A stretch of DNA of 64,000 bases, from the NCBI GenBank assembly GCA_016927995.1, contig JAFGLO010000015.1:3847-67846 (forward strand). The letters are read 5' to 3'. Positions 6,001 through 59,935 of the stretch are shown piece after piece. Both the position numbers and the translations under genes were made by a program. Below the pieces are notes generated by a model, which had not been told where the DNA came from, ran no database searches, and saw only the letters and a list, made by a program, of their open reading frames with translations. The DNA is from Candidatus Dojkabacteria bacterium (GTDB lineage Bacteria > Patescibacteriota > Dojkabacteria > JAFGLO01). Every line of letters begins with the position of its first letter. Positions within the stretch are counted from its first letter, which is position 1.

Positions 6001-6346
6001 GGTAACGTTGGGTCAAGGAGATAGTGCGGGCGTAGGATTTAAAGCACTTTTTGAGGCACGTAAGGGTGCTGATATCCCGGATTTATGGCCAGATCTGGCG
6101 GCCCAGGGCAATCCGTTTGCACAGTTTGTGGCAAAACACTTGTATAATCCTACAGGTGCTGTTATACAGAGGAATGTATTCATAGACTTCCTTCGTAACA
6201 GAGGGGTAGCCGACCCTGTGGCGTTTATTAATGGAATTGATCAAAAGACGCTGGATGTTTTGTTGCGTACTCCTGGTACTGGTAGGGTAGTTGCAGGAGA
6301 TGTACTAAAGTTGACCAATGAACAAGCACGCGTGCTTTTTGACTAA
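3050..6346 (+). CDS. Large protein, 1098 aa (P3). It has a long helical N-terminal region, about 4-5 predicted TM helices near aa 720-880, a Pro-rich linker (PTGIIGGPGPSVTPPAGPQTPPAGG) and a distinct ~150-aa C-terminal domain. Hypothetical; candidate effector/toxin-like protein.
   Basis: Long uninterrupted ORF. The hydrophobic stretches are visible in the translation (GGAFALATAAVMTTIGATLGAPVATGLAVVMGIYAAF.., LGAFALGAAGGAAMVVGFGNFAGVIASLLMI.., NFWTALVSGVVTGAAAAGLWV). The Pro-rich linker precedes the terminal domain. Confidence 0.7.
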   Translation: MAVNPIRGPVPQFLGGPRGVMNEVNAVVQRPAENVFRWIDENLRPVRVIGRLAQRIGNAFDAVDNVARGVRPGVGNVVDQLDALRGNVAQAAANVVDKVPLVGHRLSQNIEEHHVIAGKEVENLDRRFYKKTRGKSLEQIVDAQLHYNAKRAEYEDIANQPTVPGAPNLVEQWAAGRTADIDLHGREELAQIDPSDTAAIDKKRKEIAARLMADEDMRGAVLAGNVMDRNSSKAVLDAKYGRANADQMVKIIEKSANAMTPTYGEVRGEKRLTQVDTLSTDDPRLGVRLDIASDIVKKNALDAASKEFGRRIADPILEGQKVDRQIGFFRDGKARDFVADLRAGLSKPPTADEIKRLEKALNKSPFNQRVDIDDRLATPGSRVGPAARALDVIWREIYTYEGLRNIDLSKPKDRNDFRKTVLCNIYGLDTDLDPKVRDMQKVTAEAKKIADANNPADKANAISALMANTHISENMKFAILFDAAVTKGKNINGTQNIEQIIAFMDGKTMPEVMQDLANALGVADLNSTAPGINNMVDYVFNMLPDVQLLVETPDGDLNQAMCEAFMKMQLLVDMDKFMVMKADGSGWEFAVDANGIAYCPPNLQPAVFKYMEMLGKDRNMGNGFLKAVGEWAIANAGGAMGVTIDQLPDRFFNTQAQNKRETPKTLRDLEKNPQLADALRELGLTPAEQARIIKENETSLLGRLISGSKEAFQKLVRGGAFALATAAVMTTIGATLGAPVATGLAVVMGIYAAFNVLRGGSDTIVGFVRSGAELLNAWIHGEDKDRLAEKQQRFKVALKRLGAFALGAAGGAAMVVGFGNFAGVIASLLMIPAEKVSEVTRLMENKSRVKKLMQEIADGTIAGLSEEEKAARRAEFRKWIEKEDRAKNFWTALVSGVVTGAAAAGLWVPKQYQNLGGKAIQRIRASRMTGPTGIIGGPGPSVTPPAGPQTPPAGGTVTGDIIVEQGGNHGTRLVPFEADANGYKVTLGQGDSAGVGFKALFEARKGADIPDLWPDLAAQGNPFAQFVAKHLYNPTGAVIQRNVFIDFLRNRGVADPVAFINGIDQKTLDVLLRTPGTGRVVAGDVLKLTNEQARVLFD

Positions 6347-26950: not shown

Positions 26951-27775
26951 GTGGCACAAAAACAACACGTTATCCCTCATAACATAGTGGATGTAGATTT
27001 TAAGCTGTTTGGGGTAATGAACCTTAAACAGTTTATATATGTTGCAATTGGCGGTGTTTTAACATATATAACATTTTTGATGGTAAAAGAAGGCTCGATT
27101 CCTGCAATAATTGGCTGGCCTGCCATGGTAGTATTTGTTGTGTTTGGGCTTTCATTTGGGTTACTTCCGGTTAGGGGTAGGTCACTTGATCAGTGGGTCT
27201 TAAGCTATATTGCAGCTGTTCGTAGTCCTACTAAACGTGCCTGGATGAAAAAAGGTATAACACCTGCCGCAATTCCTTCGACAATTCCTATTGAGCAGTT
27301 AAAACCTATGCAGGTAAAACTTGGTACCCAGTCGACTGTTGGTCAAATAATCGGCGGACTGCACATCCCAACTCCTGAGGTTGACGTAAAACAGGTAAGC
27401 TTGCTTAAAGAGCCTGATTCAACCCAGTCCGTATCAATTAAAGAAGGTAGGCAGACATTGCTTTCACCAATGCATGGAACTTCCGGCACAGAAGCACAAC
27501 CCGCACAGCCGATTGTGGAACCTGGTGCAGCTCAACGTTCCGCACCAACAATAATGCAGCCCCAAGAAGAATATCAGCAAGCAAGATATGAAATGATGAG
27601 TTCGTTGCCAGCCGAACAGATACAACCTCAAAAAGTGCAGCCCCAGCAAATTCAACCGACTCAGATACAGCAACCCGGACAGATACCACTTGAGCAGATA
27701 CCCACGGATCAATCACAGCAACCTAAGCAAGGAGAATTAACTCAACAACCATATTCAACGGTAAATCCAACTTAA
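26951..27775 (+). CDS. PrgI/VirB3-like two-TM membrane protein with a Q/P-rich C-terminal tail (T4SS-associated, hypothetical)
   Basis: GTG start. It has two adjacent TM helices (FIYVAIGGVLTYITFLMV; IIGWPAMVVFVVFGLSFGLL) and then a low-complexity QPQ-rich tail. It sits upstream of the VirB4 genes, as PrgI-like genes do in Gram-positive T4SS loci. Confidence 0.4.
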   Translation: MAQKQHVIPHNIVDVDFKLFGVMNLKQFIYVAIGGVLTYITFLMVKEGSIPAIIGWPAMVVFVVFGLSFGLLPVRGRSLDQWVLSYIAAVRSPTKRAWMKKGITPAAIPSTIPIEQLKPMQVKLGTQSTVGQIIGGLHIPTPEVDVKQVSLLKEPDSTQSVSIKEGRQTLLSPMHGTSGTEAQPAQPIVEPGAAQRSAPTIMQPQEEYQQARYEMMSSLPAEQIQPQKVQPQQIQPTQIQQPGQIPLEQIPTDQSQQPKQGELTQQPYSTVNPT

Positions 27776-27790
27776 TTATTTTAAACTGCC

Positions 27791-28267
27791 ATGACGGAAG
27801 TGGAACTGCAGCAACTAACTGCGCAGAACCAAAACTTAATAGACGAAAATGCAAGGCTTAGAAAAACCATAGATGAGCTTAATCTTAAAGTCCAGGAATT
27901 AAGTTCTAAGCTTGGTGTTGGGAAAGAACAACCTGTCCAGTCCGACAGAATCACTATAAATCCACAAACAGTAAAGGATTATAGGATTGATATTATGGGA
28001 GTTGTTCCTCGTGAAAATACTGTAAATTTTGTTGTTAAGGACAGGGAAGGGCTTTTAGTTCCAGACGTTGTATGTATAATAAAAGACTCTTCGGGGCGAC
28101 CAACAAGGGCCGCCAAAAGTAACCAATTGGGGCAAGTTTTATTTACAAGCCCAATGCCAACCGGAAATTATACACTTGAGCTTACCAAGTCGGGATATGC
28201 ATTTCCCTTGTGTGAACTCGAATTAAATGGTAGAGTGCTTGGTTCATTTGAGATTAGGGCTATATAA
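27791..28267 (+). CDS. Coiled-coil / beta-sandwich (CarboxypepD_reg-like) hypothetical protein
   Basis: N-terminal heptad-like region (ELQQLTAQNQNLIDENARLRKTIDELNLKVQEL), followed by ..TGNYTLELTKSGYAFPL.. Confidence 0.45.
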   Translation: MTEVELQQLTAQNQNLIDENARLRKTIDELNLKVQELSSKLGVGKEQPVQSDRITINPQTVKDYRIDIMGVVPRENTVNFVVKDREGLLVPDVVCIIKDSSGRPTRAAKSNQLGQVLFTSPMPTGNYTLELTKSGYAFPLCELELNGRVLGSFEIRAI

Positions 28268-28891
28268 ATGGCACAATCTGTAAATCCAAATAAACAACCG
28301 ATTTTCGATTCAACGCAGGATCATCTTGATATCGTTGAAGTGATAGACGATATGTTACTGCTTCGAGGAAATAAAGTTGCGGTTGTGATTCAAACAACGG
28401 CAGTAAACTTTGATCTTTTGTCAGACGAAGAGCAAGATTCCAGAATTATGGCTTTTGCAAGCCTCTTAAACTCGGTAACATATCCGTTGCAAATTGTTGT
28501 GAGGACAAAGAAGGTTGATATATCAAACTATCTTACTTACCTTAGAAACTACTTGACCCAACCAATGTCGGAAGGTCGAAGAACCCAAATGCAAATATAT
28601 TTAAACTTTATCCAAAACCTAATAGTAAAAAACGAAATCTTAGACAAGCAGTTTTATGTTGTTGTATCATATTCAACCGTGCAGCTTGGAAACGTTAATC
28701 CATTAAAGCTTCTAAAACGAGATAAACAACCCGCACCGACAATTGCAAACGATCTTTTAATAGAGCAGGCCAAAGCGAATTTATATCCTAAGCGAGATCA
28801 TATAATTCGCCAACTTATTAATATGGGAGTTAAGGGATATCAACTAACGGGTGATCAACTAAAGGACGTTTTTTATAATATCTATAATTAA
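28268..28891 (+). CDS. VirB4/TrsE/TcpF-type conjugative ATPase, N-terminal fragment (split gene)
   Basis: ..DIVEVIDDMLLLRGNKVAVVIQTTAVNFDLLSDEEQDSRIMAFASLLNSVTYPLQIVVRTKKV.. matches the N-terminal region of Gram-positive VirB4-like ATPases (I..I.D....G..Y......IN(F/Y)..LSDEE.......S.LLNS). It ends 2 nt before the next ORF, in a different frame. Confidence 0.55.
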   Translation: MAQSVNPNKQPIFDSTQDHLDIVEVIDDMLLLRGNKVAVVIQTTAVNFDLLSDEEQDSRIMAFASLLNSVTYPLQIVVRTKKVDISNYLTYLRNYLTQPMSEGRRTQMQIYLNFIQNLIVKNEILDKQFYVVVSYSTVQLGNVNPLKLLKRDKQPAPTIANDLLIEQAKANLYPKRDHIIRQLINMGVKGYQLTGDQLKDVFYNIYN

Positions 28892-28893
28892 AA

Positions 28894-30993
28894 ATGAGCA
28901 ATCCTATTATTGAAGGAATAAGAAAGGTCTTATTCGGGAAAAAGGCACAAAATACCCAAGGGCAACAACCTGTTCAATACACGCAATCGCAAGGCGTGCA
29001 GATGCAGCCGGTACCGCCAATGCAACCTTCCACCCAAGCAGTTATACAACCACAACCGGGTCAGGTTATACAACCACAACCGGATCAGGTAATACAACCA
29101 CAGCCGGGTCAGGTAATACAACCGCCAGAAGGAACTCCTGTAATTACACAAGTGACTCAGGATATGCAACTTGCTCAGGCTCAGGCTAATGAACAGATAG
29201 GCATTAGGGATATATTGGCACCAAGCTACATAGAGGTCGATTTTAATTATATTCAGGTTGGAAGAAAATACTTTAGAACCCTTTTTATATCGAAATATCC
29301 GCGCGTAGTTAGAATCAACTGGCTTTCTCCATTAATAAATTTCGATAGCTCCCTTATTATTAGTACACACTATTATCCACTTGATATTAAAGATGTACTT
29401 GCTAGACTCAAAAAGAAAATGGGTGAGCTGGAGGCAACTTTAATGGTTCAGGTTGAGAAGGGAAAGGTTATCGATCCTACGGCAAAGGTTGCATTAAAAG
29501 ATGCACAAAGCTTACAAGATGCAATTGCATCGGGTGCGGAAAAGCTATTTCAGTTTGGGCTTTACGTAACAGTTGAGGCAAATTCTACGGAAGAACTAAA
29601 TAAAGTCACGAAAGATGTTGTCTCCACAATATCTGCACTTGATATGCAAGCCGACCCGACAACACTTCAAATGGAGCAGGGGTTGCAGTCGTCCATTCCA
29701 TCCGGTGTAGACAAACTTTTTTACAACCGAAATCTTGATACAACATCAATTGCAACAACGTTTCCGTTTATTACGTCTGAACTTACAATGGATCATGGAA
29801 TTTTATATGGAGTTAACCTGCATAACAAAAGTCTCGTTGTCTTTGATAGGTTTGATTTAGAGAATGCTAATTCCACGGTTTTTGCAAGATCGGGTGCAGG
29901 TAAAAGTTATTTCGTAAAACTGGAGATTTTTAGAAGTCTAATGCTTGGAACCGAAGTTATTATTATTGATCCGGAAAAGGAGTATGAAAGCTTGGCAAAA
30001 TCACTCGATGGATTATATATTACTTTTTCCCAGGATGAAGGTTATAAAGTAAATCCGTTTGAACTTCCCGGCGCGTTAATCGAAGAGGGTGTTGATCAGC
30101 TTCGTGAAAAAATTCTCTCTCTTCAGCGATTTTTTAATATTATGTTTGGCGGAACCAGTAATTTGGAAAAGGCTATCCTTGATAGAGCAATGATGCTTAC
30201 TTACAATGAAAAAGGAATAACAGTCGAACCCTCAACTCAGAGTAATCCTGCACCGCTTTTGGAGGATCTCTATAAAGTACTTAAAGGGTTTACTGAAGAA
30301 GATGCACAAAGCCTGGCAAAGCGAATGGAGCGATTTATAATTGGTAGCGCAGCAGGAATATTTAATGAGCGGACAAATCTATCATTAGACAATCCATTTA
30401 CCGTGTTTTCAATTCGTGATCTATCGGAAGAATTAAGACCGTTAGCAATGTATCAAATGCTTGATTTTATCTGGACTAATATACGAAAAATCCGCAAAAA
30501 AAGAATTTTGGTTGTAGAGGAGGCCTGGTATATGATGCAACGTCCCGATTCGGCCGAATTTATGTATTCTATTGCAAAACGTGCTCGAAAGTACTATCTT
30601 GGGCTCACTACAATAAGTCAAGATGTCGACGACTTTTTATCTACTGATTATGGAAAAGCCGTAGTAAACAACAGTGCCATGCAGATTCTCTTGAAGCAAA
30701 GTTCCTCTGCAATTGACCGAATCCAGTTTGTGTTTAAGCTTACCGAGGGAGAGCGATCATTTCTTTTAAGATGCGGAATAGGTGAAGGACTATTCTTTGC
30801 AGGGAATAATCATGTGGCAATTAAAAGCGTTTCAAGTCTTGCCGAGCACAGACTTATGACAACCAATCCACAGGAAATGGATTTTTATAAACAGGTTGGA
30901 CTAATGGATGATACAGATTCCGAAAAACTCTCAAAGGTGTTTACACCGACCTTAGTTGAATCCTTATACGGAAATAAAAATGGGAATATTTGA
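28894..30993 (+). CDS. VirB4/TrbE-family type IV secretion ATPase (main body), with an N-terminal Q/P-rich repeat insert
   Basis: ..VDFNYIQVGRKYFRTLFISKYPRVVRINWLSPLINFDSSLIISTHYYPLD.., Walker A FARSGAGKSYFVK and Walker B RILVVEEAWYMM are all present. Confidence 0.8.
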   Translation: MSNPIIEGIRKVLFGKKAQNTQGQQPVQYTQSQGVQMQPVPPMQPSTQAVIQPQPGQVIQPQPDQVIQPQPGQVIQPPEGTPVITQVTQDMQLAQAQANEQIGIRDILAPSYIEVDFNYIQVGRKYFRTLFISKYPRVVRINWLSPLINFDSSLIISTHYYPLDIKDVLARLKKKMGELEATLMVQVEKGKVIDPTAKVALKDAQSLQDAIASGAEKLFQFGLYVTVEANSTEELNKVTKDVVSTISALDMQADPTTLQMEQGLQSSIPSGVDKLFYNRNLDTTSIATTFPFITSELTMDHGILYGVNLHNKSLVVFDRFDLENANSTVFARSGAGKSYFVKLEIFRSLMLGTEVIIIDPEKEYESLAKSLDGLYITFSQDEGYKVNPFELPGALIEEGVDQLREKILSLQRFFNIMFGGTSNLEKAILDRAMMLTYNEKGITVEPSTQSNPAPLLEDLYKVLKGFTEEDAQSLAKRMERFIIGSAAGIFNERTNLSLDNPFTVFSIRDLSEELRPLAMYQMLDFIWTNIRKIRKKRILVVEEAWYMMQRPDSAEFMYSIAKRARKYYLGLTTISQDVDDFLSTDYGKAVVNNSAMQILLKQSSSAIDRIQFVFKLTEGERSFLLRCGIGEGLFFAGNNHVAIKSVSSLAEHRLMTTNPQEMDFYKQVGLMDDTDSEKLSKVFTPTLVESLYGNKNGNI
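29041..29124 (+). repeat. 24-bp tandem repeat, about 3.4 copies, encoding VIQPQPGQ units
   Basis: gttatacaaccacaaccgggtcag, gttatacaaccacaaccggatcag, gtaatacaaccacagccgggtcag, then a partial copy. Confidence 0.9.
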
Positions 30994-31303
30994 TTCGATC
31001 AAGCGATTATTAGGAATAGGGAAAACTCCTGTACAAGATGGTCTCTCACAAACTATTCCGGAATTTAAATATTCACGTCGATCAGGCGAAGTCGTTGGTT
31101 CGGGTAGCCCTACGGTTCCCCAAAATGGTTGTGCGAATCAATCACCGAGGCTTCCTATAGATGATCCTGCATTAGCACTACTAAAAGCCAACGAGCTTGT
31201 TAAAGGCGGAAAAGAGTTGATATCTTCGCGCGAGGTTAACGTTAAAACAAGCGACTCCGGCGCCACAGCCAAGCTCCCGCAAAACCCGTTTAAGGGGGTA
31301 TAA
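30980..31303 (+). CDS. Hypothetical small protein
   Basis: ORF overlapping the VirB4 stop. Low-complexity sequence with weak support. Confidence 0.25.
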   Translation: MGIFDSIKRLLGIGKTPVQDGLSQTIPEFKYSRRSGEVVGSGSPTVPQNGCANQSPRLPIDDPALALLKANELVKGGKELISSREVNVKTSDSGATAKLPQNPFKGV

Positions 31304-31304
31304 G

Positions 31305-31326
31305 TACCGACCTCATACCGACCTCA
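31305..31326. repeat. 11-bp perfect tandem duplication: TACCGACCTCA x2
   Basis: Read directly from the sequence. Confidence 0.9.
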
Positions 31327-31398
31327 TGGATTGGTTTTGACAGTTGTCCCTTGATATTTAACAAAGTTATCTATCACTGTTTACTGCTTATCATGTCA

Positions 31399-36519: not shown

Positions 36520-39015
36520 TTAAACAGGAATTGATATTGGTGGTTCATCATTTTTGGGCTCGTTGCCGTTAGGCGTTTGATTACTACTAAGTGGTTGACT
36601 ACTACCGGTGCTACTTGTTGTGGTTGTTGTCAAGGTAGATGAAGTAACAGGTGGAGGAGTAATCATACCATCGGGTGGTAGGCCGGATACCGGAGTAGTA
36701 TTACTTTGCTTAGGTGTTTGTGAGCTTAATGTGGTTGGTGTTCCCGTTGTCGGTTGCGTTGTTGTAGCTGTACTTGTAGTGGTTATTGTTGCGGGTTCAC
36801 TGCTTTGGTAAAAGCCTGAAGGTGACGAAATCGTGGCAACGTTATTAGGTTCTTGATATATGTATGTAGATGTCTTAGTTGGTGGGCTGGAAGATTGGCT
36901 AGTTAGGGAACTTGTAGATTGAGTTGTTGGTGGATTTATGGGTTGATAAGTTGTTGTGGATATGTACTTAGTGGTTTTATCTCTTCCAAAAAGAAATGGT
37001 AAGAAGAGTAAGCCTAGAAGTAGGAATGCAATACCAATCGCAATTATTATAAGAAGATTTTTGGGAAACTCGATCCCAAATAGTGTTATTGTGTCACTAC
37101 TTGTCTCTTTCTCACTTTCGGTTGTTGTTGCAAGTTTTATGCTAAAGTTCCAATTTTTCTCTGCCTTTTCTGTTTTATCATTTTCAAAAGAAACTTTCAC
37201 CGAGTGCTGTCCCTCTGTAAGGTTCTTGGCAACATATGTAAATGAGGCCTTTTGGTCAGTACGTTGGTTCAATATTATTAGATCGGATATATCTTTATCA
37301 TCCAAAAGCACAACAAGAGAATCTCTGTCAATTATATTGTTGTTTCCTGCATTTAAGTCAGCCTGGAGTGTTACTTCAGTTTTGACAATAGTTGATCCGT
37401 TTAGTGGAATAATATTTGTGATTTCGGGAGGGAAATACGTATTTTCCGGGTTTGTCACAGTGTTTCCTTCTACGGGAGGGGTATTATCTTCCGGTGGTTG
37501 GCTGGGGTTTATTGCGCCTGTGCCTCCACCCTGTGAAACGTTGGTAACACTAATTTGTGGAGTAACCAAATAGCCAATTCCTGCAGGGACCTGGTCATCC
37601 GTAGCCTGAACAATAACATAGTAGGTTCCTGTAGGAAGGTTAGGGGTCCAGTTATATTCTACAAAGTTGTGGTTAAGATCGACTATTTTTACCCAAGTTG
37701 ATGAGTTGGCCGGATTGGTTGTGTAATATAATGAATATCTAATTATCTGGTTTCGATCATTTGTTCCCGTCCAGTTTATTCTTAGTGTTTGTGTACTTGT
37801 CATTACTACGGGGGACGTTGGGGAGGCTATAACAACAACTGGCGTATCGTTACCTTCGGTTCGTTGAACAATAACGGGCCATACTCGTGTTACATAGTGA
37901 ATAGGATAACCGTCATTACAGGTAATTGTAATCATGTAAGAGCCTTCTTCGTTTGTTGAGCCTGTAAGCGAAATTGCAATTTGAGATCCGTTTGAGCTTG
38001 GAGTTTCGGTGATAGTTACCCATTTTCTACCGCTTGATCCCTCGGGTGCTATTGCAGTACAGCTTATTACATCACCATCGGGGTCGGCAACATTCAATGT
38101 AAATTGATAGGTCTGACCTTGATTTATAATGTTCGCATTGTTTGCGGTAGGATTGTTTTGGAATACAGGCGCACTGTTTCCTGCCGGAGTTAAAACAATT
38201 GTTCCACCGGATGCATGTACCGGTCGGACGATAAAATTAATAATGTTGTCGATTAGACTTTCTTCTCCATTCGCCGTTACTACTGTAAGATCAACGCTGT
38301 AAACATTTTGAATTGTTGGAGTAAAGGTGAAGGGCGGTTCACTGTTTTCGTCGATTAGTACAAGCGTTTGCGGATTAGTAAATTCCCAGGTTAATGTGTC
38401 AATAAGCTCGTTTTCTGCAAATATTTCTGCAGTAACCTTAGTTACTCCGGTTGTGGATTCAATTGTTGCGCTAAAGGTTACGGGATATCCTAGAATAATA
38501 TTGCCCGACGAAGGTGTAACGGAAAAATTCTTAACGACAAACCCCTCGCGAGTTGATACGGAAATCATTGTTTCATATACGACATAGTCAATACCATCGG
38601 TGACATATATTTTAATAGGATTTTCGGCTGCTGCATCTAATGGAACATCCCATGATATATCGCCGGTTTCACGGTTAAGTTGTAAACCGGCAGGGTATAC
38701 TGGTTGAACGTTCTCACATTCTTCATGAGTTCGGACAACACCTTTTGAATCTGTTACCTCCGCAGGACAGTTTAATAGGTAGATTAATACGTCTTGGTCT
38801 TTGTCGGTTGCAATAATTTTACTTGCATATAATTCTCCGGCGTATGCGTTTGTTTCAGGCTTTTCTGACACGGCCGGAAAGTTGTTTACGACTTGGTCTC
38901 CGGCATAGTTTCGATATTTAATTAAGTCCCTAACTTCAAATGCAATTATAGGTAACATAATAAATGCAAGAAGAACAATAGCGGCATTTATTCGTTTTTT
39001 TGTAGGTTTATCCAT
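36520..39015 (-). CDS. Large surface protein with an N-terminal signal/anchor, multiple Ig-like beta-sandwich regions, a TM helix and a Ser/Thr/Pro-rich C-terminal tail
   Basis: The N-terminus has MDKPTKKRINAAIVLLAFIMLPIIAF. The TM is LLIIIAIGIAFLLLGLLFLPFLF. It is followed by a TTTT/SSS/PP-rich tail. The protein has many N-x-T/S sites. Confidence 0.6.
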   Translation of the reverse strand: MDKPTKKRINAAIVLLAFIMLPIIAFEVRDLIKYRNYAGDQVVNNFPAVSEKPETNAYAGELYASKIIATDKDQDVLIYLLNCPAEVTDSKGVVRTHEECENVQPVYPAGLQLNRETGDISWDVPLDAAAENPIKIYVTDGIDYVVYETMISVSTREGFVVKNFSVTPSSGNIILGYPVTFSATIESTTGVTKVTAEIFAENELIDTLTWEFTNPQTLVLIDENSEPPFTFTPTIQNVYSVDLTVVTANGEESLIDNIINFIVRPVHASGGTIVLTPAGNSAPVFQNNPTANNANIINQGQTYQFTLNVADPDGDVISCTAIAPEGSSGRKWVTITETPSSNGSQIAISLTGSTNEEGSYMITITCNDGYPIHYVTRVWPVIVQRTEGNDTPVVVIASPTSPVVMTSTQTLRINWTGTNDRNQIIRYSLYYTTNPANSSTWVKIVDLNHNFVEYNWTPNLPTGTYYVIVQATDDQVPAGIGYLVTPQISVTNVSQGGGTGAINPSQPPEDNTPPVEGNTVTNPENTYFPPEITNIIPLNGSTIVKTEVTLQADLNAGNNNIIDRDSLVVLLDDKDISDLIILNQRTDQKASFTYVAKNLTEGQHSVKVSFENDKTEKAEKNWNFSIKLATTTESEKETSSDTITLFGIEFPKNLLIIIAIGIAFLLLGLLFLPFLFGRDKTTKYISTTTYQPINPPTTQSTSSLTSQSSSPPTKTSTYIYQEPNNVATISSPSGFYQSSEPATITTTSTATTTQPTTGTPTTLSSQTPKQSNTTPVSGLPPDGMITPPPVTSSTLTTTTTSSTGSSQPLSSNQTPNGNEPKNDEPPISIPV

Positions 39016-43031: not shown

Positions 43032-45275
43032 TTATTTGTTTTTTACCTTTCTAACGACGCTTTCCTCAAAATGCTTCTTAGGCTTTGTATACTTTAGGAC
43101 AAGCAAACTTTCCGAACTATCGCCAACACCCGTAAACTTCAGCTTTGGAAGCTTAACAAACCATTCACCCTTGTAAAGCACTATTGCAATACCTAGTAGT
43201 GTCAAAGGAATTATTATTGCTATTGGCATGTCAAGAATTCCTGTGTCCGGACTGCAGGTTTGTTCGACAGGGAATGCATATTCGTCGTATCCTGGGTTGC
43301 CGTCTTCTATCTCTATGGTTATTTCGTTTACATTTTGACCGGTTACGGCCGCAGTTGTTGCTAATGCCGTAAATGTAATCGTTACATCGGCTCCTGATAC
43401 CGGCGTTATTGTCCAGTTTCCGGTCCATACCAGTGTTGTTACTCCGTTTTGAGTTGTAATGGTTGGTTCGACAGCTGTTGCCGTTCCTGAACCTATTCGT
43501 ATTCTTGCCGAATTTGCTTGATATGTGAACCCTGGTGGTAATATGTCGGTTATTCTTGTTATTACTTCTGTTGTTTGAACGTTTCCAGTTACTGTAAATG
43601 CTGCGACATTATTGGGTGGGACTCGTTCTACACAAATAGGGCCTGTTTTTTCAACAGCCATTTCGCCTGGGGCACGTAAGGTTGCATTTACTTGACATGC
43701 TGTTGAGGTTACGGGATCAGCTATTCCCGCAAATCTAATATCAACTCTTACGGAACAAAGATCGCCGTCATCGGCCCCTGCGGGCGGGGTAAAGACAAAT
43801 CCTCTGTTATCGGTTGTTGCCGTTGAATTATAGGTATGAATTTCACTTGCCGAAATTGTTCCGTCACAGTTTTGGTCGACTCTCCAGATGTATTGTTGTA
43901 CTGCGGCTGTTCCGCCTGCAGTTACGGTAAAGTTTCGAAGAGTTCCGGTTGAGTTTGTTAACACTATTGTGTCATTTGGAAGGACGGATACACAAACTCC
44001 ATCAGTAAGTACTTGAGTTCGACTTGCGGAAAGTGTGCTGTTACATATATCGGCGCCATAGAACGAACCACTTATTTCCGTTCTTCCGTAAACCGTACAA
44101 GTGTCACTTTGGACACCACTTGCAAGAGTCATTGTAACATTTACTGCAGGATTTCCATCAAAGTAACGCCTTACTCCCTGTGCAGTTGTTTGTCCACCTA
44201 CTGATAGAGTAGTAGATGAATTTCCACAGTTAACCGTATACTCTACTCTTGTTATGTTGCCATTTCCTCCGGTTAGGGTATAACTTCGGGCTGCAGTTCC
44301 TGCAGGCAGACCGGATACAGAGGTTGGTGTAATACCGGCACAGTATGGAGTTTCAGTTATGGTCCCGCCACGTTTACACCATTTGTATACCCAGCTTGGA
44401 TTGTTACAGGTTCCGCAAAGAGTTTTACATCCATTACCAAAAACAGAACAACCTGTTTTACTAGTTGAATCACCTGTTATCCCACAGTCGTCATAGCCTA
44501 CAGGACAGGTTGGTAGGGTGCAACCGTCAGCATAAGGACCTGTATTTGATAATGAAGAACAACCACCAGGCCAAGTGCTTTGAGTTTGCCAATTTACACA
44601 TATACACCCGCTAGCGCCGTTACACTGGGAGATCGATGAAGAACAACAGTAGGTTGCTTCCGGATAAGTACATCTTATGGTATCTGGTTGGTCACATCCC
44701 CAGCCGTTACTTGCATTTCCACCTCCAAGACATGCAGTTCCTTGTCCCGTAGATGTACATGCACTACAAGAACCACCACAGTCTACTCCCGTTTCGTCTC
44801 CATCTAGAACGCCGTTCGAACAGTGGTCAGCAGCTCCACATACATTACAATGTGCGCCACCGCAGTCTACACCCGTTTCATCTTGATCTTGAATGCCATT
44901 ACTACAATGTGCCGCCGGTGGAGTTGCCGTACATCTCGGGTCATTGGCGCTTACCACTGTTGCACTGTCTTCTGTGGACCAGCATGTACCAGCTGTTCCT
45001 CCGCTACAACCTCTTTGCCATCTAACCCAATCTGATCCTTTACAGCCCTCTTCGTTATCGTCGATACAGTTGTTTCCGTCACCAACACCGCCCCAATTTA
45101 CACACTCTGTCCAACAGTCACACGACCAATCAGCTCTGCCAGTATCACTACCAACATTAAGTTTCCACAAAAGGTAGCCACCGGCGCCGGCAGTAATAAC
45201 CGTTAACACTGTGAAAATAATTAGAATGGTTTTGGTTTTCTTTTTCTTCGTGCTTTCGATGACTTGAGTGCTCAT
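43032..45275 (-). CDS. Cys-rich surface protein with an N-terminal TM anchor, repeated HCSNGxxDxDETGVDCGGxxCxxC modules, beta-sandwich repeats and a C-terminal hydrophobic segment
   Basis: 747 aa. The N-terminus is ..ILIIFTVLTVITAGAGGYLLW. The repeated modules are ..HCSNGIQDQDETGVDCGGAHCNVCGAADHCSNGVLDGDETGVDCGGSCSAC.. The C-terminal TM is MPIAIIIPLTLLGIAIVLY. Confidence 0.65.
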   Translation of the reverse strand: MSTQVIESTKKKKTKTILIIFTVLTVITAGAGGYLLWKLNVGSDTGRADWSCDCWTECVNWGGVGDGNNCIDDNEEGCKGSDWVRWQRGCSGGTAGTCWSTEDSATVVSANDPRCTATPPAAHCSNGIQDQDETGVDCGGAHCNVCGAADHCSNGVLDGDETGVDCGGSCSACTSTGQGTACLGGGNASNGWGCDQPDTIRCTYPEATYCCSSSISQCNGASGCICVNWQTQSTWPGGCSSLSNTGPYADGCTLPTCPVGYDDCGITGDSTSKTGCSVFGNGCKTLCGTCNNPSWVYKWCKRGGTITETPYCAGITPTSVSGLPAGTAARSYTLTGGNGNITRVEYTVNCGNSSTTLSVGGQTTAQGVRRYFDGNPAVNVTMTLASGVQSDTCTVYGRTEISGSFYGADICNSTLSASRTQVLTDGVCVSVLPNDTIVLTNSTGTLRNFTVTAGGTAAVQQYIWRVDQNCDGTISASEIHTYNSTATTDNRGFVFTPPAGADDGDLCSVRVDIRFAGIADPVTSTACQVNATLRAPGEMAVEKTGPICVERVPPNNVAAFTVTGNVQTTEVITRITDILPPGFTYQANSARIRIGSGTATAVEPTITTQNGVTTLVWTGNWTITPVSGADVTITFTALATTAAVTGQNVNEITIEIEDGNPGYDEYAFPVEQTCSPDTGILDMPIAIIIPLTLLGIAIVLYKGEWFVKLPKLKFTGVGDSSESLLVLKYTKPKKHFEESVVRKVKNK

Positions 45276-57475: not shown

Positions 57476-59935
57476 GTGGAGTTTTTATATACAATCGCAC
57501 AGTACGTAAAACCTGTTCCATACAATGATTCTACAAATGATTCCGTTACTACTGCAGCTTCAGCTCTTGATTGGAGCGCTATAATAATTTTTCTTGCCTT
57601 GTTTGTTTTTATCTGTGTACTTGTCGTTGTTGCAATATTAATCTTTGCAAAGAATCAAAGGGAGGAAGATAGAGAGGACAAGTCCCTCGATAGTGTACTT
57701 TATCGAGTAAGAATTGCTCAAAGCAACGAAATTGAAATAGGGGTTGCCGAGCAGTTTTTCTCGAACCTCTACAGTATTGGTAAAAAACAAAAGTTTTGGG
57801 AGCGGCTTTTAAAGGTAAATCCATCAATAAGTCTTGAAATAGTATCGCTTCCGATTGGAATAGATTTTTATATCTATACACCCAGAAAATTTGCAAAACA
57901 CGTGGAAAACCAAATTTTGGCAACATACCAAGTTGCTGAAGTAGAGGAAATATTCGATCACAATATATTTAAAGAGGGTAAACGTGTAGCTGCCGTAGAA
58001 CTTGTTTTGTCCGATGAGCCACATCAACCAATCAAAGTACATGAGGACTTTAAAGGAGACCCGCTTTCCGGTATTTTAAGTGGACTAACCAAAATTCAAG
58101 AAGGAGACGGAGCTTGTCTTCAGATAACAATATCTCCGGCAGATTCTTCTTGGCAGAAGTCGGGGACCAAATTCATCCAAAAGATTAATTCCAATAATGC
58201 CGATCCGGAAAAATCAAGAATAGAAGAGAGTCAGGAAAAGCTCCAGGCAATCGAAAAGAAATGTACTAAAAATGGTTTTTATACTGCAATCCGAATAGTT
58301 GCAACTGCTGATACCGACGATCTGGCAGAAGCCAGAGTAAATGGTATTGCATCTGCGTTCGATCAGTTTTCAAATCCGGGCATTAACTCCTTTAAAAAGA
58401 GAACACCCAAGGGAGCTGAACTAAAGCAATTTATGACCGACTTTATCTATAGAAAAAGTCCAATAGGAAAGAAGAACATACTTAATGTAGCTGAACTTGC
58501 TACAATTTTTCACCTTCCGAACAAGGAAATACAGACACCTTTGTTAAACTGGTTAGGATTTAGAAAGGCTCCACCCGACCCACGAATTCCTGCAGAAGGT
58601 TTGTGGCTGGGTACTTCAGTATATCGTGGCGAGCGTAGACCAGTTGCAATACGTCCGGAAGACCGTAGGCGACACATGTATATAATTGGTAAAACCGGAG
58701 TAGGAAAGTCATGGTTTTTGCAAAACCTTGTTATGCAAGATATCTATGCCGGACATGGAGTTGCGTTTCTCGATCCTCACGGTGATACGGTTGAATGGTT
58801 ACTTAAGAGAATTCCGGCTGATCGGGCCGAAGATGTTATTTATTTTAATGCAGCCGATCATGAACGTCCGGTAGGGTTTAACATAATGGAGTATTACAAC
58901 GAGAGTGATAAGCACTTGGTTGTTAACTCTTTCCTCGGACTTATGTATAAAATGTTTGACCCAAATAACCAGGGTATTGTAGGCCCAATCTTCGAGAGAG
59001 CCGTTCGAAATGTAATGCTTACCGCAATGTCCGAACCGGGTTCAACGTTGGTTGAGGTTGTGCGTATTCTTACCGATGAAGAATGGGTTAAATCATATTG
59101 GCTTCCAAAGGTAAAAGATGATCTGGTAAGACGTTATTGGACCGATCAAATGTCCCAAACCGATAAATTCCATAAATCCGAAGCGCTTGGCTATCTTGTT
59201 TCAAAGTTTGACCGTTTCGTTACAAATGAGCTTATGCGTCATATAATCGGACAATCAAAGTCGGGATTTGATTTTAGGGATGTTATGGATAATAAAAAGA
59301 TTCTCTTGGTAAATCTATCGAAAGGTTTAATAGGTGAAGAAAATGCCGAATTTCTGGGACTTTTAATGATTCCTAGGCTTTTGCGTGCCGCCATGAGTAG
59401 AGCCGATATAGACGAAGAGCAGCGCCAAGATTTTTATCTTTATGTTGATGAATTCCAAAACTTTGCAACGGATAGCTTCGAACAAATATTATCCGAGGCC
59501 CGTAAATATCGACTTAACCTTATTGTTGCAAACCAGTATATTCAGCAGATCGACGAAAAAATCCGCGACGCAATATTTGGAAACATTGGTAGTATTGTAA
59601 GCTTTAAAGTTGGTACTGACGATGCCGAGTATTTGCAAAAGGTATTTGAACCCGTGTTTAACTCACAAGATCTTATTGGTATTGAGGCAATTAACGCCTA
59701 TGCAAGGATTCTTGTTAATAATGAATGGCCACCTGCATTTTCAATGTCTACTTGGTATGATTCCGGAAAATGGGTTTCAAATCCCAAGGTTCGTGATTTG
59801 GCTGTTCAGCTTTCGCGAGTTCGATATGGTGCCGATGTTAATGCAGTTCGTGAAGATATTTCAAGGAGAGCTCATCTTGCCGTTGAAAATGCTCCTCCGG
59901 CAACGGGTGGAATTCCTGGTCTACCAACGTTCTAA
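57476..59935 (+). CDS. VirD4/TraG/TraD-like type IV coupling protein ATPase (membrane-anchored)
   Basis: GTG start. N-terminal TM (AIIIFLALFVFICVLVVVAILIF), Walker A IIGKTGVGKSWFL and Walker B FYLYVDEFQNFATDS, plus ..LIVANQYIQQI.. The FtsK/HerA/T4CP-type P-loop architecture is recognisable. Confidence 0.6.
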   Translation: MEFLYTIAQYVKPVPYNDSTNDSVTTAASALDWSAIIIFLALFVFICVLVVVAILIFAKNQREEDREDKSLDSVLYRVRIAQSNEIEIGVAEQFFSNLYSIGKKQKFWERLLKVNPSISLEIVSLPIGIDFYIYTPRKFAKHVENQILATYQVAEVEEIFDHNIFKEGKRVAAVELVLSDEPHQPIKVHEDFKGDPLSGILSGLTKIQEGDGACLQITISPADSSWQKSGTKFIQKINSNNADPEKSRIEESQEKLQAIEKKCTKNGFYTAIRIVATADTDDLAEARVNGIASAFDQFSNPGINSFKKRTPKGAELKQFMTDFIYRKSPIGKKNILNVAELATIFHLPNKEIQTPLLNWLGFRKAPPDPRIPAEGLWLGTSVYRGERRPVAIRPEDRRRHMYIIGKTGVGKSWFLQNLVMQDIYAGHGVAFLDPHGDTVEWLLKRIPADRAEDVIYFNAADHERPVGFNIMEYYNESDKHLVVNSFLGLMYKMFDPNNQGIVGPIFERAVRNVMLTAMSEPGSTLVEVVRILTDEEWVKSYWLPKVKDDLVRRYWTDQMSQTDKFHKSEALGYLVSKFDRFVTNELMRHIIGQSKSGFDFRDVMDNKKILLVNLSKGLIGEENAEFLGLLMIPRLLRAAMSRADIDEEQRQDFYLYVDEFQNFATDSFEQILSEARKYRLNLIVANQYIQQIDEKIRDAIFGNIGSIVSFKVGTDDAEYLQKVFEPVFNSQDLIGIEAINAYARILVNNEWPPAFSMSTWYDSGKWVSNPKVRDLAVQLSRVRYGADVNAVREDISRRAHLAVENAPPATGGIPGLPTF

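What the first reader, a model, noticed from the sequence alone, without database searches (positions are those of the whole stretch)
28268..30993. VirB4-type T4SS ATPase split into two ORFs at a domain junction, with a Q/P-rich tandem-repeat linker inserted
The 207-aa ORF matches the N-terminal segment of Gram-positive VirB4/TrsE/TcpF-type ATPases (..INF.LLSDEEQ..S.LLNS..). The 699-aa ORF continues with the next conserved segment (..YFRTLF..YPR..WL..) and the P-loop. The two ORFs are 2 nt apart in different frames. The second begins with about 90 aa of low complexity encoded partly by a 24-bp tandem repeat (29041-29124, VIQPQPGQ units). This is either a genuine two-gene VirB4, or a frameshift in a repeat-prone linker that is pseudogenising or phase-varying the ATPase.
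Basis: partly seen in the sequence, partly recalled or inferred. Interest (0 to 1): 0.6.

Follow-up and report, generated by a model that had tools for sequence, protein, structure and literature searches.

The report
Two-gene VirB4 ATPase (TrsD-like plus body)
The secretion-system motor VirB4 of this Dojkabacteria genome is made from two intact adjacent genes, an arrangement already described for this group of ultra-small bacteria, so it is not a broken or switchable gene.

Summary
ORF1 (28268-28891, 207 aa) and ORF2 (28894-30993, 699 aa) lie 2 nt apart in different frames. A 24-bp x3.3 tandem repeat (29044-29123) sits in a Q/P-rich N-terminal stretch of ORF2.

ORF1 is a TrsD-like protein, the detached N-terminal module of VirB4. 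ORF2 is the rest of VirB4 with an intact Walker A. Its Walker B carries a D-to-E change that relatives share.

The split is genuine. All 79 Dojkabacteria loci that could be scored keep two ORFs, with varied stop/start geometries. Staphylococcal plasmid pSK41 has the same trsC-trsD-trsE order. In Ca. Amesbacteria, single-chain and two-chain forms occur among close relatives and are collinear at this junction.

Frameshift error, pseudogenisation and phase variation are not supported. The repeat unit is 8 codons, so copy changes only alter linker length.

TrsD next to VirB4 was published in 2025 as the commonest type IV secretion component of Patescibacteria. The kind is therefore known.

Two points appear undescribed in the one Patescibacteria T4SS paper I text-searched. 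The low-complexity stretch is a class-wide, fast-evolving extension carrying a conserved amphipathic/basic motif. In other lineages the tail sits on the TrsD side instead.

NCBI's 609-aa call for ORF2 probably starts too late.

The parts
26951..27775 (+). PrgI/VirB3-like membrane protein with a Q/P-rich C-terminal tail; first gene of the cluster
   Evidence: Pfam PF12666 PrgI, E = 4.9e-7, above the curated cut-off. A homologue lies upstream of the TrsD-like gene in 81 fetched loci.
27791..28267 (+). 158-aa protein with a coiled coil and a CarboxypepD_reg-like beta-sandwich. In other Dojkabacteria this is the C-terminal part of the PrgI-like protein.
   Evidence: Weak Pfam PF13620 hit. It is in the same frame as the PrgI-like ORF, separated by two TAA codons. 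It is fused in L006, L007, L017 and L021, and split in L003 as here. L002 and L085 carry annotated PrgI+CarboxypepD_reg fusions.
28268..28891 (+). TrsD-like protein, the detached N-terminal module of VirB4 (207 aa)
   Evidence: NCBIfam TrsD/TraD E = 9.1e-8 (below cut-off) and VirB4_plasma positions 125-236. The identical protein P0001 carries PF26593 TraC-like. hhalign against pSK41 TrsD gives 96.8% probability and against fused P0284 residues 4-203 gives 100%. The AF2 model has pLDDT 87.8, and its top 14 PDB matches are all TrwK/VirB4.
28889..28896 (+). Junction: ORF1 stop TAA, then AA, then ORF2 ATG. This is close stop/start spacing of the kind expected for translational coupling.
   Evidence: The ORF2 frame is closed by a TAA two codons upstream of the ATG, which leaves no room for a programmed frameshift. 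In 79 related loci the first ATG nearly always lies within a few nt of the ORF1 stop.
28894..30993 (+). VirB4 body (699 aa): N-terminal motif, disordered linker, the remainder of the VirB4 N-terminal domain, and the P-loop ATPase domain
   Evidence: NF045971 (VirB4-like, CD1110 family) scores 368.7 bits against a cut-off of 325, covering model positions 181-736 of 752. Pfam hits are P-loop_TraG, AAA_10, DUF87 and CagE_TrbE_VirB. BLASTP against pSK41 TrsE gives 5e-42.
28900..28944 (+). Conserved amphipathic/basic N-terminal motif of ORF2 (residues 3-17, NPIIEGIRKVLFGKK)
   Evidence: An amphipathic pattern is present in 70 of 77 unique N-terminal extensions, against 22.8 (maximum 32) in shuffles. 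With an adjacent basic cluster it is present in 56 of 77, against 12.2 (maximum 21). The highest hydrophobic moment of the extension falls at residues 3-13 (0.73).
28945..29193 (+). Q/P-rich low-complexity linker of ORF2 (about residues 18-100)
   Evidence: 26% Q and 15% P. There is no stop in frame, while four of the other five frames carry 1-6 stops each. The homologous region stays open in frame in all 79 loci but is not conserved in sequence or length (31-175 aa).
29044..29123 (+). 24-bp tandem repeat, 3.3 copies, in frame, encoding (V/A)IQPQPGQ units
   Evidence: TRF score 139. It is the only strong repeat among the 80 homologous linkers; the others score 69 or less.
29884..29907 (+). Walker A (ARSGAGKS, residues 331-338)
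30505..30528 (+). Walker B (ILVVEEAW, residues 538-545). The usual Asp is replaced by Glu.
   Evidence: The family majority is LIVDEAW. LVVEEA is shared by 6 of 92 relatives.
57476..59935 (+). VirD4-like coupling-protein homologue 27 kb downstream; a possible partner ATPase of the same system
   Evidence: Pfam DUF87, TraG-D_C and T4SS-DNA_transf hits. Not examined further.

Best explanation
ORF1 and ORF2 are two functional, co-transcribed genes that together supply what other type IV secretion systems encode as one VirB4 polypeptide.

ORF1 is a TrsD-like protein. It corresponds to the first ~200 residues of single-chain VirB4.

ORF2 is the rest: the remainder of the N-terminal domain plus the Walker A/B ATPase domain.

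The genes follow a PrgI/VirB3-like membrane protein and are separated by only 2 nt. Inferred: translation is coupled. ORF1 acts as the membrane-proximal adaptor that links the VirB3-like protein to the ATPase hexamer, as the VirB4 N-terminal domain does in the R388 system.

The first ~100 residues of ORF2 are translated. They form a short conserved amphipathic/basic helix followed by a fast-evolving disordered tether. Inferred: the helix binds the membrane or a partner subunit. The 24-bp repeat is recent in-frame slippage that only changes tether length.

The cluster belongs to the chromosomal Patescibacteria-type T4SS. That system is essential for epibiotic growth in Ca. Southlakia, but its substrate is unknown.
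For: Identity of ORF1:
- Sequence models.
- Profile comparison with pSK41 TrsD: probability 96.8%, E = 3e-10, 180 aligned columns.
- Structure: AF2 pLDDT 87.8; Foldseek top 14 PDB hits are all TrwK/VirB4, best E = 7.6e-4, probability 0.89-1.0.

Identity of ORF2:
- It passes the curated cut-off of the CD1110 VirB4 family, starting at model position 181.
- Walker A is intact and the Walker B region is present, with the usual Asp replaced by Glu.

The split is conserved:
- 251 ORF1 homologues are all 191-271 aa stand-alone proteins.
- 79 of 79 Dojkabacteria loci are split, with diverse overlaps and gaps.
- Loci L001 and L002 show the order PrgI, TrsD-like, VirB4.
- pSK41 has trsC, trsD (227 aa), trsE (672 aa).

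The two pieces are equivalent to one chain:
- Fused Amesbacteria proteins (P0284 and about 45 of the top 120 hits) contain the ORF1 module at residues 4-203, directly followed by the ORF2 core.
- Relatives whose body is 85-88% identical are split, with an ATGA overlap.
- These split relatives are collinear with the fused form at the junction.

The N-terminal extension is translated:
- The frame is open in all loci.
- The start codon abuts the ORF1 stop.
- The motif is conserved.

Literature:
- TrsD is the most abundant T4SS component of Patescibacteria. There are 2,272 homologues, 1,664 of them next to virB4. It has remote homology to the VirB4 N-terminus, and its homologue is essential in Ca. 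Southlakia (PMC12102498).
- The Southlakia T4SS is essential (PMC10633639).
Against: - There is no experimental or expression evidence for this locus, and no test of physical interaction between ORF1, ORF2 and the PrgI-like protein.
- ORF1 scores far below NCBIfam's TrsD cut-off (32 bits against 200). Its match to TrwK is a distant fold match (TM-score 0.33-0.49).
- The model of the fused relative was poor (pTM 0.41), so the three-dimensional packing of the two modules is not shown.
- TrsD-like genes are not always next to virB4. In L084 one is followed by pilin genes, and the literature reports the same for Gracilibacteria. TrsD may therefore do more than complete VirB4.
- No Shine-Dalgarno-like sequence was seen upstream of any gene in the cluster.
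- NCBI annotates ORF2 from Met91.
- The Walker B Asp is Glu here.
- The amphipathicity of the 14-residue motif is not above shuffles.
Confidence: 0.85

Rival explanations
1. A sequencing or assembly frameshift, or a recent pseudogenising frameshift, has broken a single VirB4 gene.
For: The two ORFs are in different frames only 2 nt apart. Single-chain forms exist in Ca. Amesbacteria. The source is a metagenome-assembled genome.
Against: 79 of 79 related loci are split, with many different junction geometries. ORF1 homologues keep the same length down to 42% identity. Both ORFs keep conserved motifs and complete domains. The ORF2 frame is closed by a TAA two codons upstream of its ATG. A single indel could therefore restore one ORF only within that roughly one-codon interval.
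Confidence: 0.02
2. Phase variation: copy-number change of the tandem repeat switches the ATPase on and off.
For: A 92%-identical 24-bp x3.3 repeat lies in the 5' part of ORF2.
Against: The unit is 24 bp (8 codons), so gain or loss of copies preserves the frame. The repeat is 150 nt downstream of the start codon and is not in the junction or a promoter. No comparable repeat occurs in the 79 homologous linkers. No strain-level copy-number data could be examined.
Confidence: 0.03
3. ORF2 really starts at Met91 (the 609-aa NCBI call). The Q/P-rich stretch would then be an untranslated spacer of about 270 nt between two genes.
For: NCBI annotates 609 aa (P0121). Several relatives are annotated as starting right at the conserved core (P0129, P0138, P0139). 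No clear ribosome-binding site lies upstream of ATG 28894.
Against: The 90 codons contain no stop, although four of the other five frames carry 1-6 stops each. The homologous stretch is open in frame back to the ORF1 stop in all 79 loci, including the genome behind P0139 (L021). An ATG sits within a few nt of the ORF1 stop in nearly all loci. The extension carries a motif conserved far beyond shuffled expectation. A shorter isoform made from Met91 in addition cannot be excluded.
Confidence: 0.08
4. The TrsD-like protein is an independent T4SS subunit with its own role, for example pilus or pilin handling. It would share ancestry with the VirB4 N-terminus but would not work as part of the ATPase.
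For: In L084 the TrsD-like gene is followed by eight short genes, six of which hit T4SS_pilin, not by virB4. [quoted passage not shown] Many homologues carry long tails with their own conserved C-terminal motifs.
Against: Fused and split forms interconvert among close relatives and are collinear. This is hard to reconcile with unrelated functions. In this class the gene is always immediately upstream of, and usually overlapping, the VirB4 body.
Confidence: 0.1

Closest known systems
TrsD + TrsE of staphylococcal conjugative plasmids pSK41/pGO1 (and TraD + TraE of pIP501), the MPF-FATA pGO1 subclass
   Same: The gene order is the same: VirB3-like, then a ~200-aa TrsD, then a VirB4 body of ~670 aa. 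The ORF1 family aligns with TrsD over 180 columns. ORF2 residues 111-672 align with TrsE residues 42-654. TrsE also begins with a hydrophobic/polybasic N-terminus (MIMAFLKKKK).
   Different: Those genes lie on conjugative plasmids with a relaxase and coupling protein; this cluster is chromosomal among housekeeping genes. Sequence identity is very low (19% for ORF1, 25% for ORF2). ORF1 does not reach NCBIfam's TrsD cut-off. TrsE has about 40 residues before the core, against about 100 here.
Patescibacteria-clade T4SS (Quinonero-Coronel et al. 2025, PMC12102498; essential cluster SEML1_0006-0019 of Ca. Southlakia epibionticum, Wang et al. 2023, PMC10633639)
   Same: It is a chromosomal PrgI/VirB3 - TrsD - VirB4 cluster in a CPR bacterium. 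TrsD is reported as the most abundant component and is usually adjacent to virB4.
   Different: A text search of the 2025 paper found no mention of disordered regions, low complexity or Dojkabacteria. It therefore does not appear to discuss the extensions, their motifs, the alternative placement of the tail or fused forms, and the class may carry another name in its taxonomy. No pilin cluster was seen next to virB4 in this window, though small ORFs were not searched. I did not test phylogenetic placement.
Single-chain VirB4 (TrwK of R388, PDB 7O41-7O43 and 8RTB/8RTD; CD1110-family VirB4 of Gram-positive ICEs; fused forms in Ca. Amesbacteria such as P0284)
   Same: ORF1 plus the ORF2 core are collinear with the single chain. 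The ORF1 model matches TrwK.
   Different: Here there are two polypeptides, plus a ~100-residue low-complexity extension that the fused Amesbacteria form lacks.

Membership tests
VirB4 ATPase (ORF2) | Match to a curated VirB4 family model above its cut-off | tested here: met
   NF045971 (VirB4-like, CD1110 family) scores 368.7 bits against a cut-off of 325, E = 5.7e-110. The match covers only model positions 181-736 of 752. TIGR00929 scores 124 bits, below its cut-off of 643.
VirB4 ATPase (ORF2) | Walker A and Walker B nucleotide-binding motifs | tested here: met
   Walker A is ARSGAGKS at residues 331-338. Walker B is ILVVEEAW at residues 538-545, with Glu in place of the usual Asp. That variant is shared by 6 of 92 relatives.
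VirB4 ATPase (ORF1+ORF2 together) | Complete N-terminal domain on the same polypeptide as the ATPase domain | tested here: not met
   The first ~180-230 model positions are encoded by the separate ORF1.
VirB4 ATPase | Encoded next to a VirB3-like membrane protein | tested here: met
   The PrgI-family ORF at 26951-27775 lies upstream. The same holds in 81 related loci.
VirB4 ATPase | Hexameric ATPase activity and a requirement for secretion | not testable with these tools
   This needs biochemistry or genetics.
TrsD/TraD family (ORF1) | Score above the NCBIfam NF041427 cut-off | tested here: not met
   32.2 bits against a cut-off of 200 (E = 9.1e-8). The relationship is remote homology only.
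TrsD/TraD family (ORF1) | Full-length homology to a prototype TrsD | tested here: met
   hhalign of the 48-sequence ORF1 family against pSK41 TrsD gives probability 96.8%, E = 3e-10, over 180 columns.
TrsD/TraD family (ORF1) | A stand-alone protein of about 200 aa encoded between the VirB3-like gene and the VirB4 gene | tested here: met
Pfam PF26593 TraC-like (ORF1) | Match to the Pfam model | tested here: inconclusive
   The precomputed annotation of the identical protein P0001 lists PF26593.2. My own Pfam scans did not return that model. Six of 48 family members hit PF11130 TraC_F_IV.
Patescibacteria-clade T4SS | VirB4 falls in the monophyletic Patescibacteria clade nested in MPF-FATA | not tested
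   No phylogeny was built. All close homologues are from Dojkabacteria or other Patescibacteria.
Patescibacteria-clade T4SS | Chromosomal location with no relaxase in the cluster | tested here: inconclusive
   Flanking genes are housekeeping (lepA, recF-like, miaA-like, dnaK, grpE, hrcA). Synteny with lepA is kept in L001. The whole window was not searched for a relaxase. A VirD4-like gene lies at 57476-59935.
Phase-variable (contingency) gene | A repeat whose copy-number change shifts the reading frame or alters the promoter | tested here: not met
   The unit is 24 bp (8 codons), internal to ORF2 and in frame.
Frameshifted pseudogene | Orthologues in related genomes are contiguous and the break is private to this genome | tested here: not met
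   79 of 79 related loci are split.
Programmed ribosomal frameshift | An overlap region open in both frames containing a slippery site | tested here: not met
   The ORF2 frame has a TAA at 28885-28887 and the ORF1 stop is at 28889-28891. The usable overlap is therefore one codon, and no slippery heptamer is present.

The most novel reading that the evidence does not exclude
The low-complexity segment may be a functional tether, not filler. On this reading, split VirB4 systems compensate for the lost covalent link with a disordered arm ending in a short docking peptide. In Dojkabacteria the arm is on the ATPase: the amphipathic/basic 'NP-hh-x-x-hL...KK' helix, which is also hinted at in pSK41 TrsE. 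In other Patescibacteria the arm is on the TrsD-like protein, whose long tails end in conserved C-terminal motifs such as PFVVEELPDDYG or LPPLPEI. These peptides would recruit the ATPase to the membrane, to TrsD or to the VirB3-like protein. Repeat slippage, as in the 24-bp array here, would tune the arm's length.
Probability: 0.25. Interest if true: 0.45.

Novelty: new member of a known kind. Interest (0 to 1): 0.25.

Why it matters
For annotation, the 207-aa 'hypothetical protein' should be named TrsD-like (VirB4 N-terminal module). The ATPase should start at 28894, not at Met91. Neither gene should be flagged as a pseudogene.

For biology, the Patescibacteria T4SS is essential for the epibiotic lifestyle in the one organism tested, and its TrsD-like component has no assigned function. 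Fused and split forms interconvert among close relatives and are collinear. This supports treating TrsD as the N-terminal module of VirB4. The conserved motif in the disordered extension gives a concrete, testable candidate for how the two chains, or the membrane, are brought together.

The locus itself is an ordinary member of an already published arrangement.

Tried and rejected
- A profile search of the ORF1 family against PDB sequences found nothing relevant. Only the fold comparison showed the VirB4 link.
- The local Pfam copy did not return PF26593.
- The first genome scan with the broad 48-sequence alignment failed because it had no conserved stretch. A 14-sequence Dojkabacteria alignment worked.
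- I modelled the natural fusion P0284, using an unpaired alignment, to see how the two modules pack. The result was too weak for that purpose (pLDDT 70, pTM 0.41). Foldseek still aligned it with TrwK over 800-880 columns, but at rmsd ~28 Å.
- Hydrophobic-moment analysis of the motif was equivocal. The 11-residue peak is 0.73, but the 14-mer is not above shuffles.
- The 115-aa ORF downstream (30956-31303) has a detectable homologue only in L003, so I do not count it as part of the system.
- Programmed frameshifting was considered and rejected from the frame geometry.
Full report
**What is in the sequence**

ORF1 runs from 28268 to 28891 (207 aa). ORF2 runs from 28894 to 30993 (699 aa). The ORF1 stop TAA is followed by 'AA' and then the ORF2 ATG, and the two ORFs are in different frames.

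Tandem Repeats Finder reports a 24-bp unit, 3.3 copies, 92% matches, at 29044-29123. The first 100 residues of ORF2 are 26% Gln and 15% Pro.

The window comes from a Candidatus Dojkabacteria (WS6, Patescibacteria/CPR) metagenome-assembled genome. ORF1 is identical to a protein deposited under locus tag JW962_03610.

**Identity of the two ORFs**

ORF2 passes the curated cut-off of NCBIfam's 'VirB4-like conjugal transfer ATPase, CD1110 family' (368.7 bits against 325). It matches only model positions 181-736 of 752. It also hits Pfam P-loop_TraG, AAA_10, DUF87 and CagE_TrbE_VirB. It has Walker A ARSGAGKS and Walker B ILVVEEAW.

ORF1 has no significant Pfam hit in my local scan, but it has several other links to VirB4:
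- It hits NCBIfam TrsD/TraD (E = 9.1e-8, below the family cut-off).
- It hits the N-terminal parts of two VirB4 models: NF045975 positions 125-236 (ORF2 covers 280-878) and TIGR00929 positions 13-124 (ORF2 covers 237-724).
- The database annotation of the identical protein lists PF26593 'TraC-like'.
- A 48-sequence profile of the ORF1 family aligns with pSK41 TrsD over 180 columns (hhalign probability 96.8%, E = 3e-10).
- An AlphaFold2 model of ORF1 is confident (pLDDT 87.8). Its 14 best matches among solved structures are all TrwK/VirB4 chains of the R388 system (best E = 7.6e-4, probability 0.89-1.0, TM-score 0.33-0.49 on the query). The next hits are unrelated and insignificant.

The 'TcpF-type' label is not supported (E = 0.0014 for that model).

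**Is the split real?**

All 251 ORF1 homologues found in the first search are stand-alone proteins of 191-271 aa, down to 42% identity.

I fetched 80 loci from species-representative genomes and two more. In 79 of them the downstream ATPase could be scored. All 79 are split and none is fused.

The junction geometry differs between genomes. There are overlaps of 1 nt (ATGA, the commonest), 4, 8, 11 or 14 nt, and gaps of 1-19 nt. This is not one inherited frameshift, and it cannot be an assembly error in this genome.

In the window the ORF2 frame is closed by a TAA two codons before its ATG. There is therefore no overlap in which a programmed frameshift could act.

The prototype Gram-positive conjugative plasmid pSK41 has the same order: trsC (VirB3-like), trsD (227 aa), trsE (672-aa VirB4). 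ORF2 residues 111-672 align with TrsE residues 42-654.

**Equivalence of two chains and one chain**

A wider search (1549 representatives at E <= 1e-3) turned up one fused protein, P0284 (787 aa), among the top 148. Its residues 4-203 match the ORF1 family (hhalign probability 100%). They are followed directly by the ORF2 core sequence.

P0284 occurs on at least three contigs from independent samples. It belongs to a set of Ca. Amesbacteria proteins, and about 45 of the top 120 hits cover at least 94% of it.

In the same list, proteins whose body is 85-88% identical to P0284 are only 584-612 aa. In two of them that I looked up (P0413 and P0419), a separate 198- or 217-aa TraC-like gene lies upstream and overlaps the body gene by ATGA.

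The junctions are collinear:
- Fused: '...NSYHRSQIETKATSVPTIAPQ...'
- Split: '...DFYNRGHLGTRVKAL*' followed by 'MKDLNTAKSVPDVLAPQ...'

Fusion and fission at exactly this point have therefore happened recently and more than once. This is the strongest argument that the TrsD-like protein works as the N-terminal module of VirB4.

**The low-complexity stretch**

It is not an insertion at a break. Every Dojkabacteria ATPase gene has an extension of 31-175 residues before the conserved '...QD(I/L)(I/V)AP' start of the core.

The extension is not conserved in sequence. It is mostly K/E-rich, and is Q/P-rich in this lineage and a few others. Three facts show that it is translated:
- The frame is open all the way back to the ORF1 stop in all 79 loci.
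- In the window it has no stop in 90 codons, while four of the other five frames have 1-6 stops.
- It contains a conserved short element: a basic cluster, often 'NP', then an amphipathic helix pattern and another basic cluster, for example KKKNPILKLLDKI..GKK. In the window this is NPIIEGIRKVLFGKK at residues 3-17.

The amphipathic pattern is present in 70 of 77 unique extensions, against 22.8 (maximum 32) in composition-preserving shuffles. With the basic cluster it is present in 56 of 77, against 12.2 (maximum 21).

NCBI's 609-aa call for ORF2 (start at Met91) is therefore probably too short. An additional internal start cannot be excluded.

The 24-bp array is the only strong tandem repeat among all the homologous linkers (score 139 against 69 or less elsewhere). 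It is a young, lineage-specific expansion. Because the unit is eight codons, slippage changes only the length of the linker. Phase variation by frameshift is excluded.

**Where the tail sits in other lineages**

In other Patescibacteria the disordered segment is attached to the other gene. Most representatives of the ORF1 family outside Dojkabacteria are 230-715 aa. They consist of the ~200-aa domain followed by a P/Q/T/S/A-rich tail.

Two looked-up loci show a 398-aa or 291-aa TrsD-like protein followed by a 628-aa or 609-aa VirB4 body. Subsets of these tails end in conserved C-terminal peptides (PFVVEELPDDYG, or LPPLPEI).

In one locus the tailed TrsD-like gene is followed by eight short genes, six of which hit T4SS_pilin, rather than by virB4.

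**How it most likely works**

Shown:
- There are two intact, conserved genes that are collinear with single-chain VirB4.
- They lie immediately after a PrgI/VirB3-like gene.
- The ATPase motifs are retained.

Inferred:
- The 2-nt spacing gives coupled translation.
- ORF1 sits at the membrane with the VirB3-like protein and docks the ATPase. This follows my recollection of the R388 structures (7O41, 8RTB), in which VirB3 wraps the VirB4 N-terminal domain. I did not check this against the papers.
- The N-terminal helix of ORF2 binds the membrane or a partner, with the Q/P-rich segment acting as a flexible tether.

The amphipathicity numbers are only suggestive.

What the system transports is unknown. 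In Ca. Southlakia the homologous cluster is essential for epibiotic growth and lacks recognisable coupling and relaxase proteins (PMC10633639). A VirD4-like gene is present in this window at 57476-59935.

**Comparison with what is known, and novelty**

Quinonero-Coronel et al. 2025 (PMC12102498) report the following:
- VirB4 is present in 2,417 of 3,035 Patescibacteria genomes.
[quoted passage not shown] - Its homologue is essential in Ca. Southlakia.

The two-gene arrangement is therefore already described, and this locus is a further member of it.

A text search of that paper finds no mention of disordered regions, low complexity or Dojkabacteria. That paper therefore does not appear to describe the class-wide extension with its motif, the alternative placement of the tail, or the interconversion with fused forms in Amesbacteria. 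I did not search the wider literature for them. These are modest additions to the published picture, not a new kind of system.

**Verdict**

The novelty category is 'new member of a known kind', and interest is low to moderate (0.25).

Noticed in passing
window 26951-28267: The PrgI-like ORF (26951-27775) and the 158-aa coiled-coil/beta-sandwich ORF (27791-28267) are in the same frame, separated only by 'TAA TTA TTT TAA'. In L006, L007, L017 and L021 one ORF spans both parts. L002 and L085 have annotated PrgI+CarboxypepD_reg fusions. The nearest relative, L003, is split like the window. This is a second gene fission at the end of a Q/P-rich linker in the same operon.
   Followed up: partly
window 28894-29163: NCBI annotates the ATPase as 609 aa starting at Met91 (P0121). 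Several relatives are likewise annotated from the conserved core, although their frames are open for 100-170 codons upstream. This looks like systematic under-calling of low-complexity N-termini.
   Followed up: yes
window 30505-30528: The Walker B motif reads ILVVEEAW, whereas the family majority is LIVDEAW. The Asp-to-Glu change is shared by 6 of 92 relatives, so it is a lineage trait and not damage. Its effect on ATPase activity is unknown.
   Followed up: partly
window 57476-59935: An 819-aa ORF has DUF87, TraG-D_C and T4SS-DNA_transf hits. It is a VirD4-like coupling-protein homologue 27 kb from virB4.
   Followed up: no
window 30956-31303: A 115-aa ORF with a TTG start overlaps the end of ORF2 by 38 nt. 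Its N-terminus (GIFDSIKRLLGIGK) resembles the amphipathic/basic motif of ORF2. L001 has a 102-aa gene in the same position, but detectable similarity was found only in L003.
   Followed up: partly
P0299, P0307, P0313, P0323, P0329 and others; loci L085, L088: TrsD-like proteins of other Patescibacteria carry 100-500-aa P/Q/T/S-rich tails. A 'YTTPLV' motif follows the domain, and the tails end in lineage-specific conserved peptides (PFVVEELPDDYG, or LPPLPEI/LPPIAEIK).
   Followed up: partly
L084 6192-10456: In one Patescibacteria contig the tailed TrsD-like gene is followed by eight short genes, six of which hit T4SS_pilin, instead of virB4. The upstream order there is Peptidase_M23 protein, a 337-aa ORF, then PrgI.
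   Followed up: no
P0426, P0427, P0430, P0436, P0437, P0478, P0480, P0489, P0505: Some Microgenomates VirB4 bodies are 1158-1215 aa and carry intein and LAGLIDADG homing-endonuclease domains (PF14890, PF14528).
   Followed up: no
window 3050-6346, 36520-39015 (-), 43032-45275 (-): Three large ORFs (1098, 831 and 747 aa) have no Pfam match at E <= 1e-5. They are possible lineage-specific envelope proteins. I did not check them for VirB6-like or hydrolase functions.
   Followed up: no
window 31305-31327: A perfect 11-bp direct repeat (TACCGACCTCA, 2.1 copies) lies just downstream of the 115-aa ORF (end 31303) and about 70 nt from the 3' end of the convergent dnaK gene (31399).
   Followed up: no
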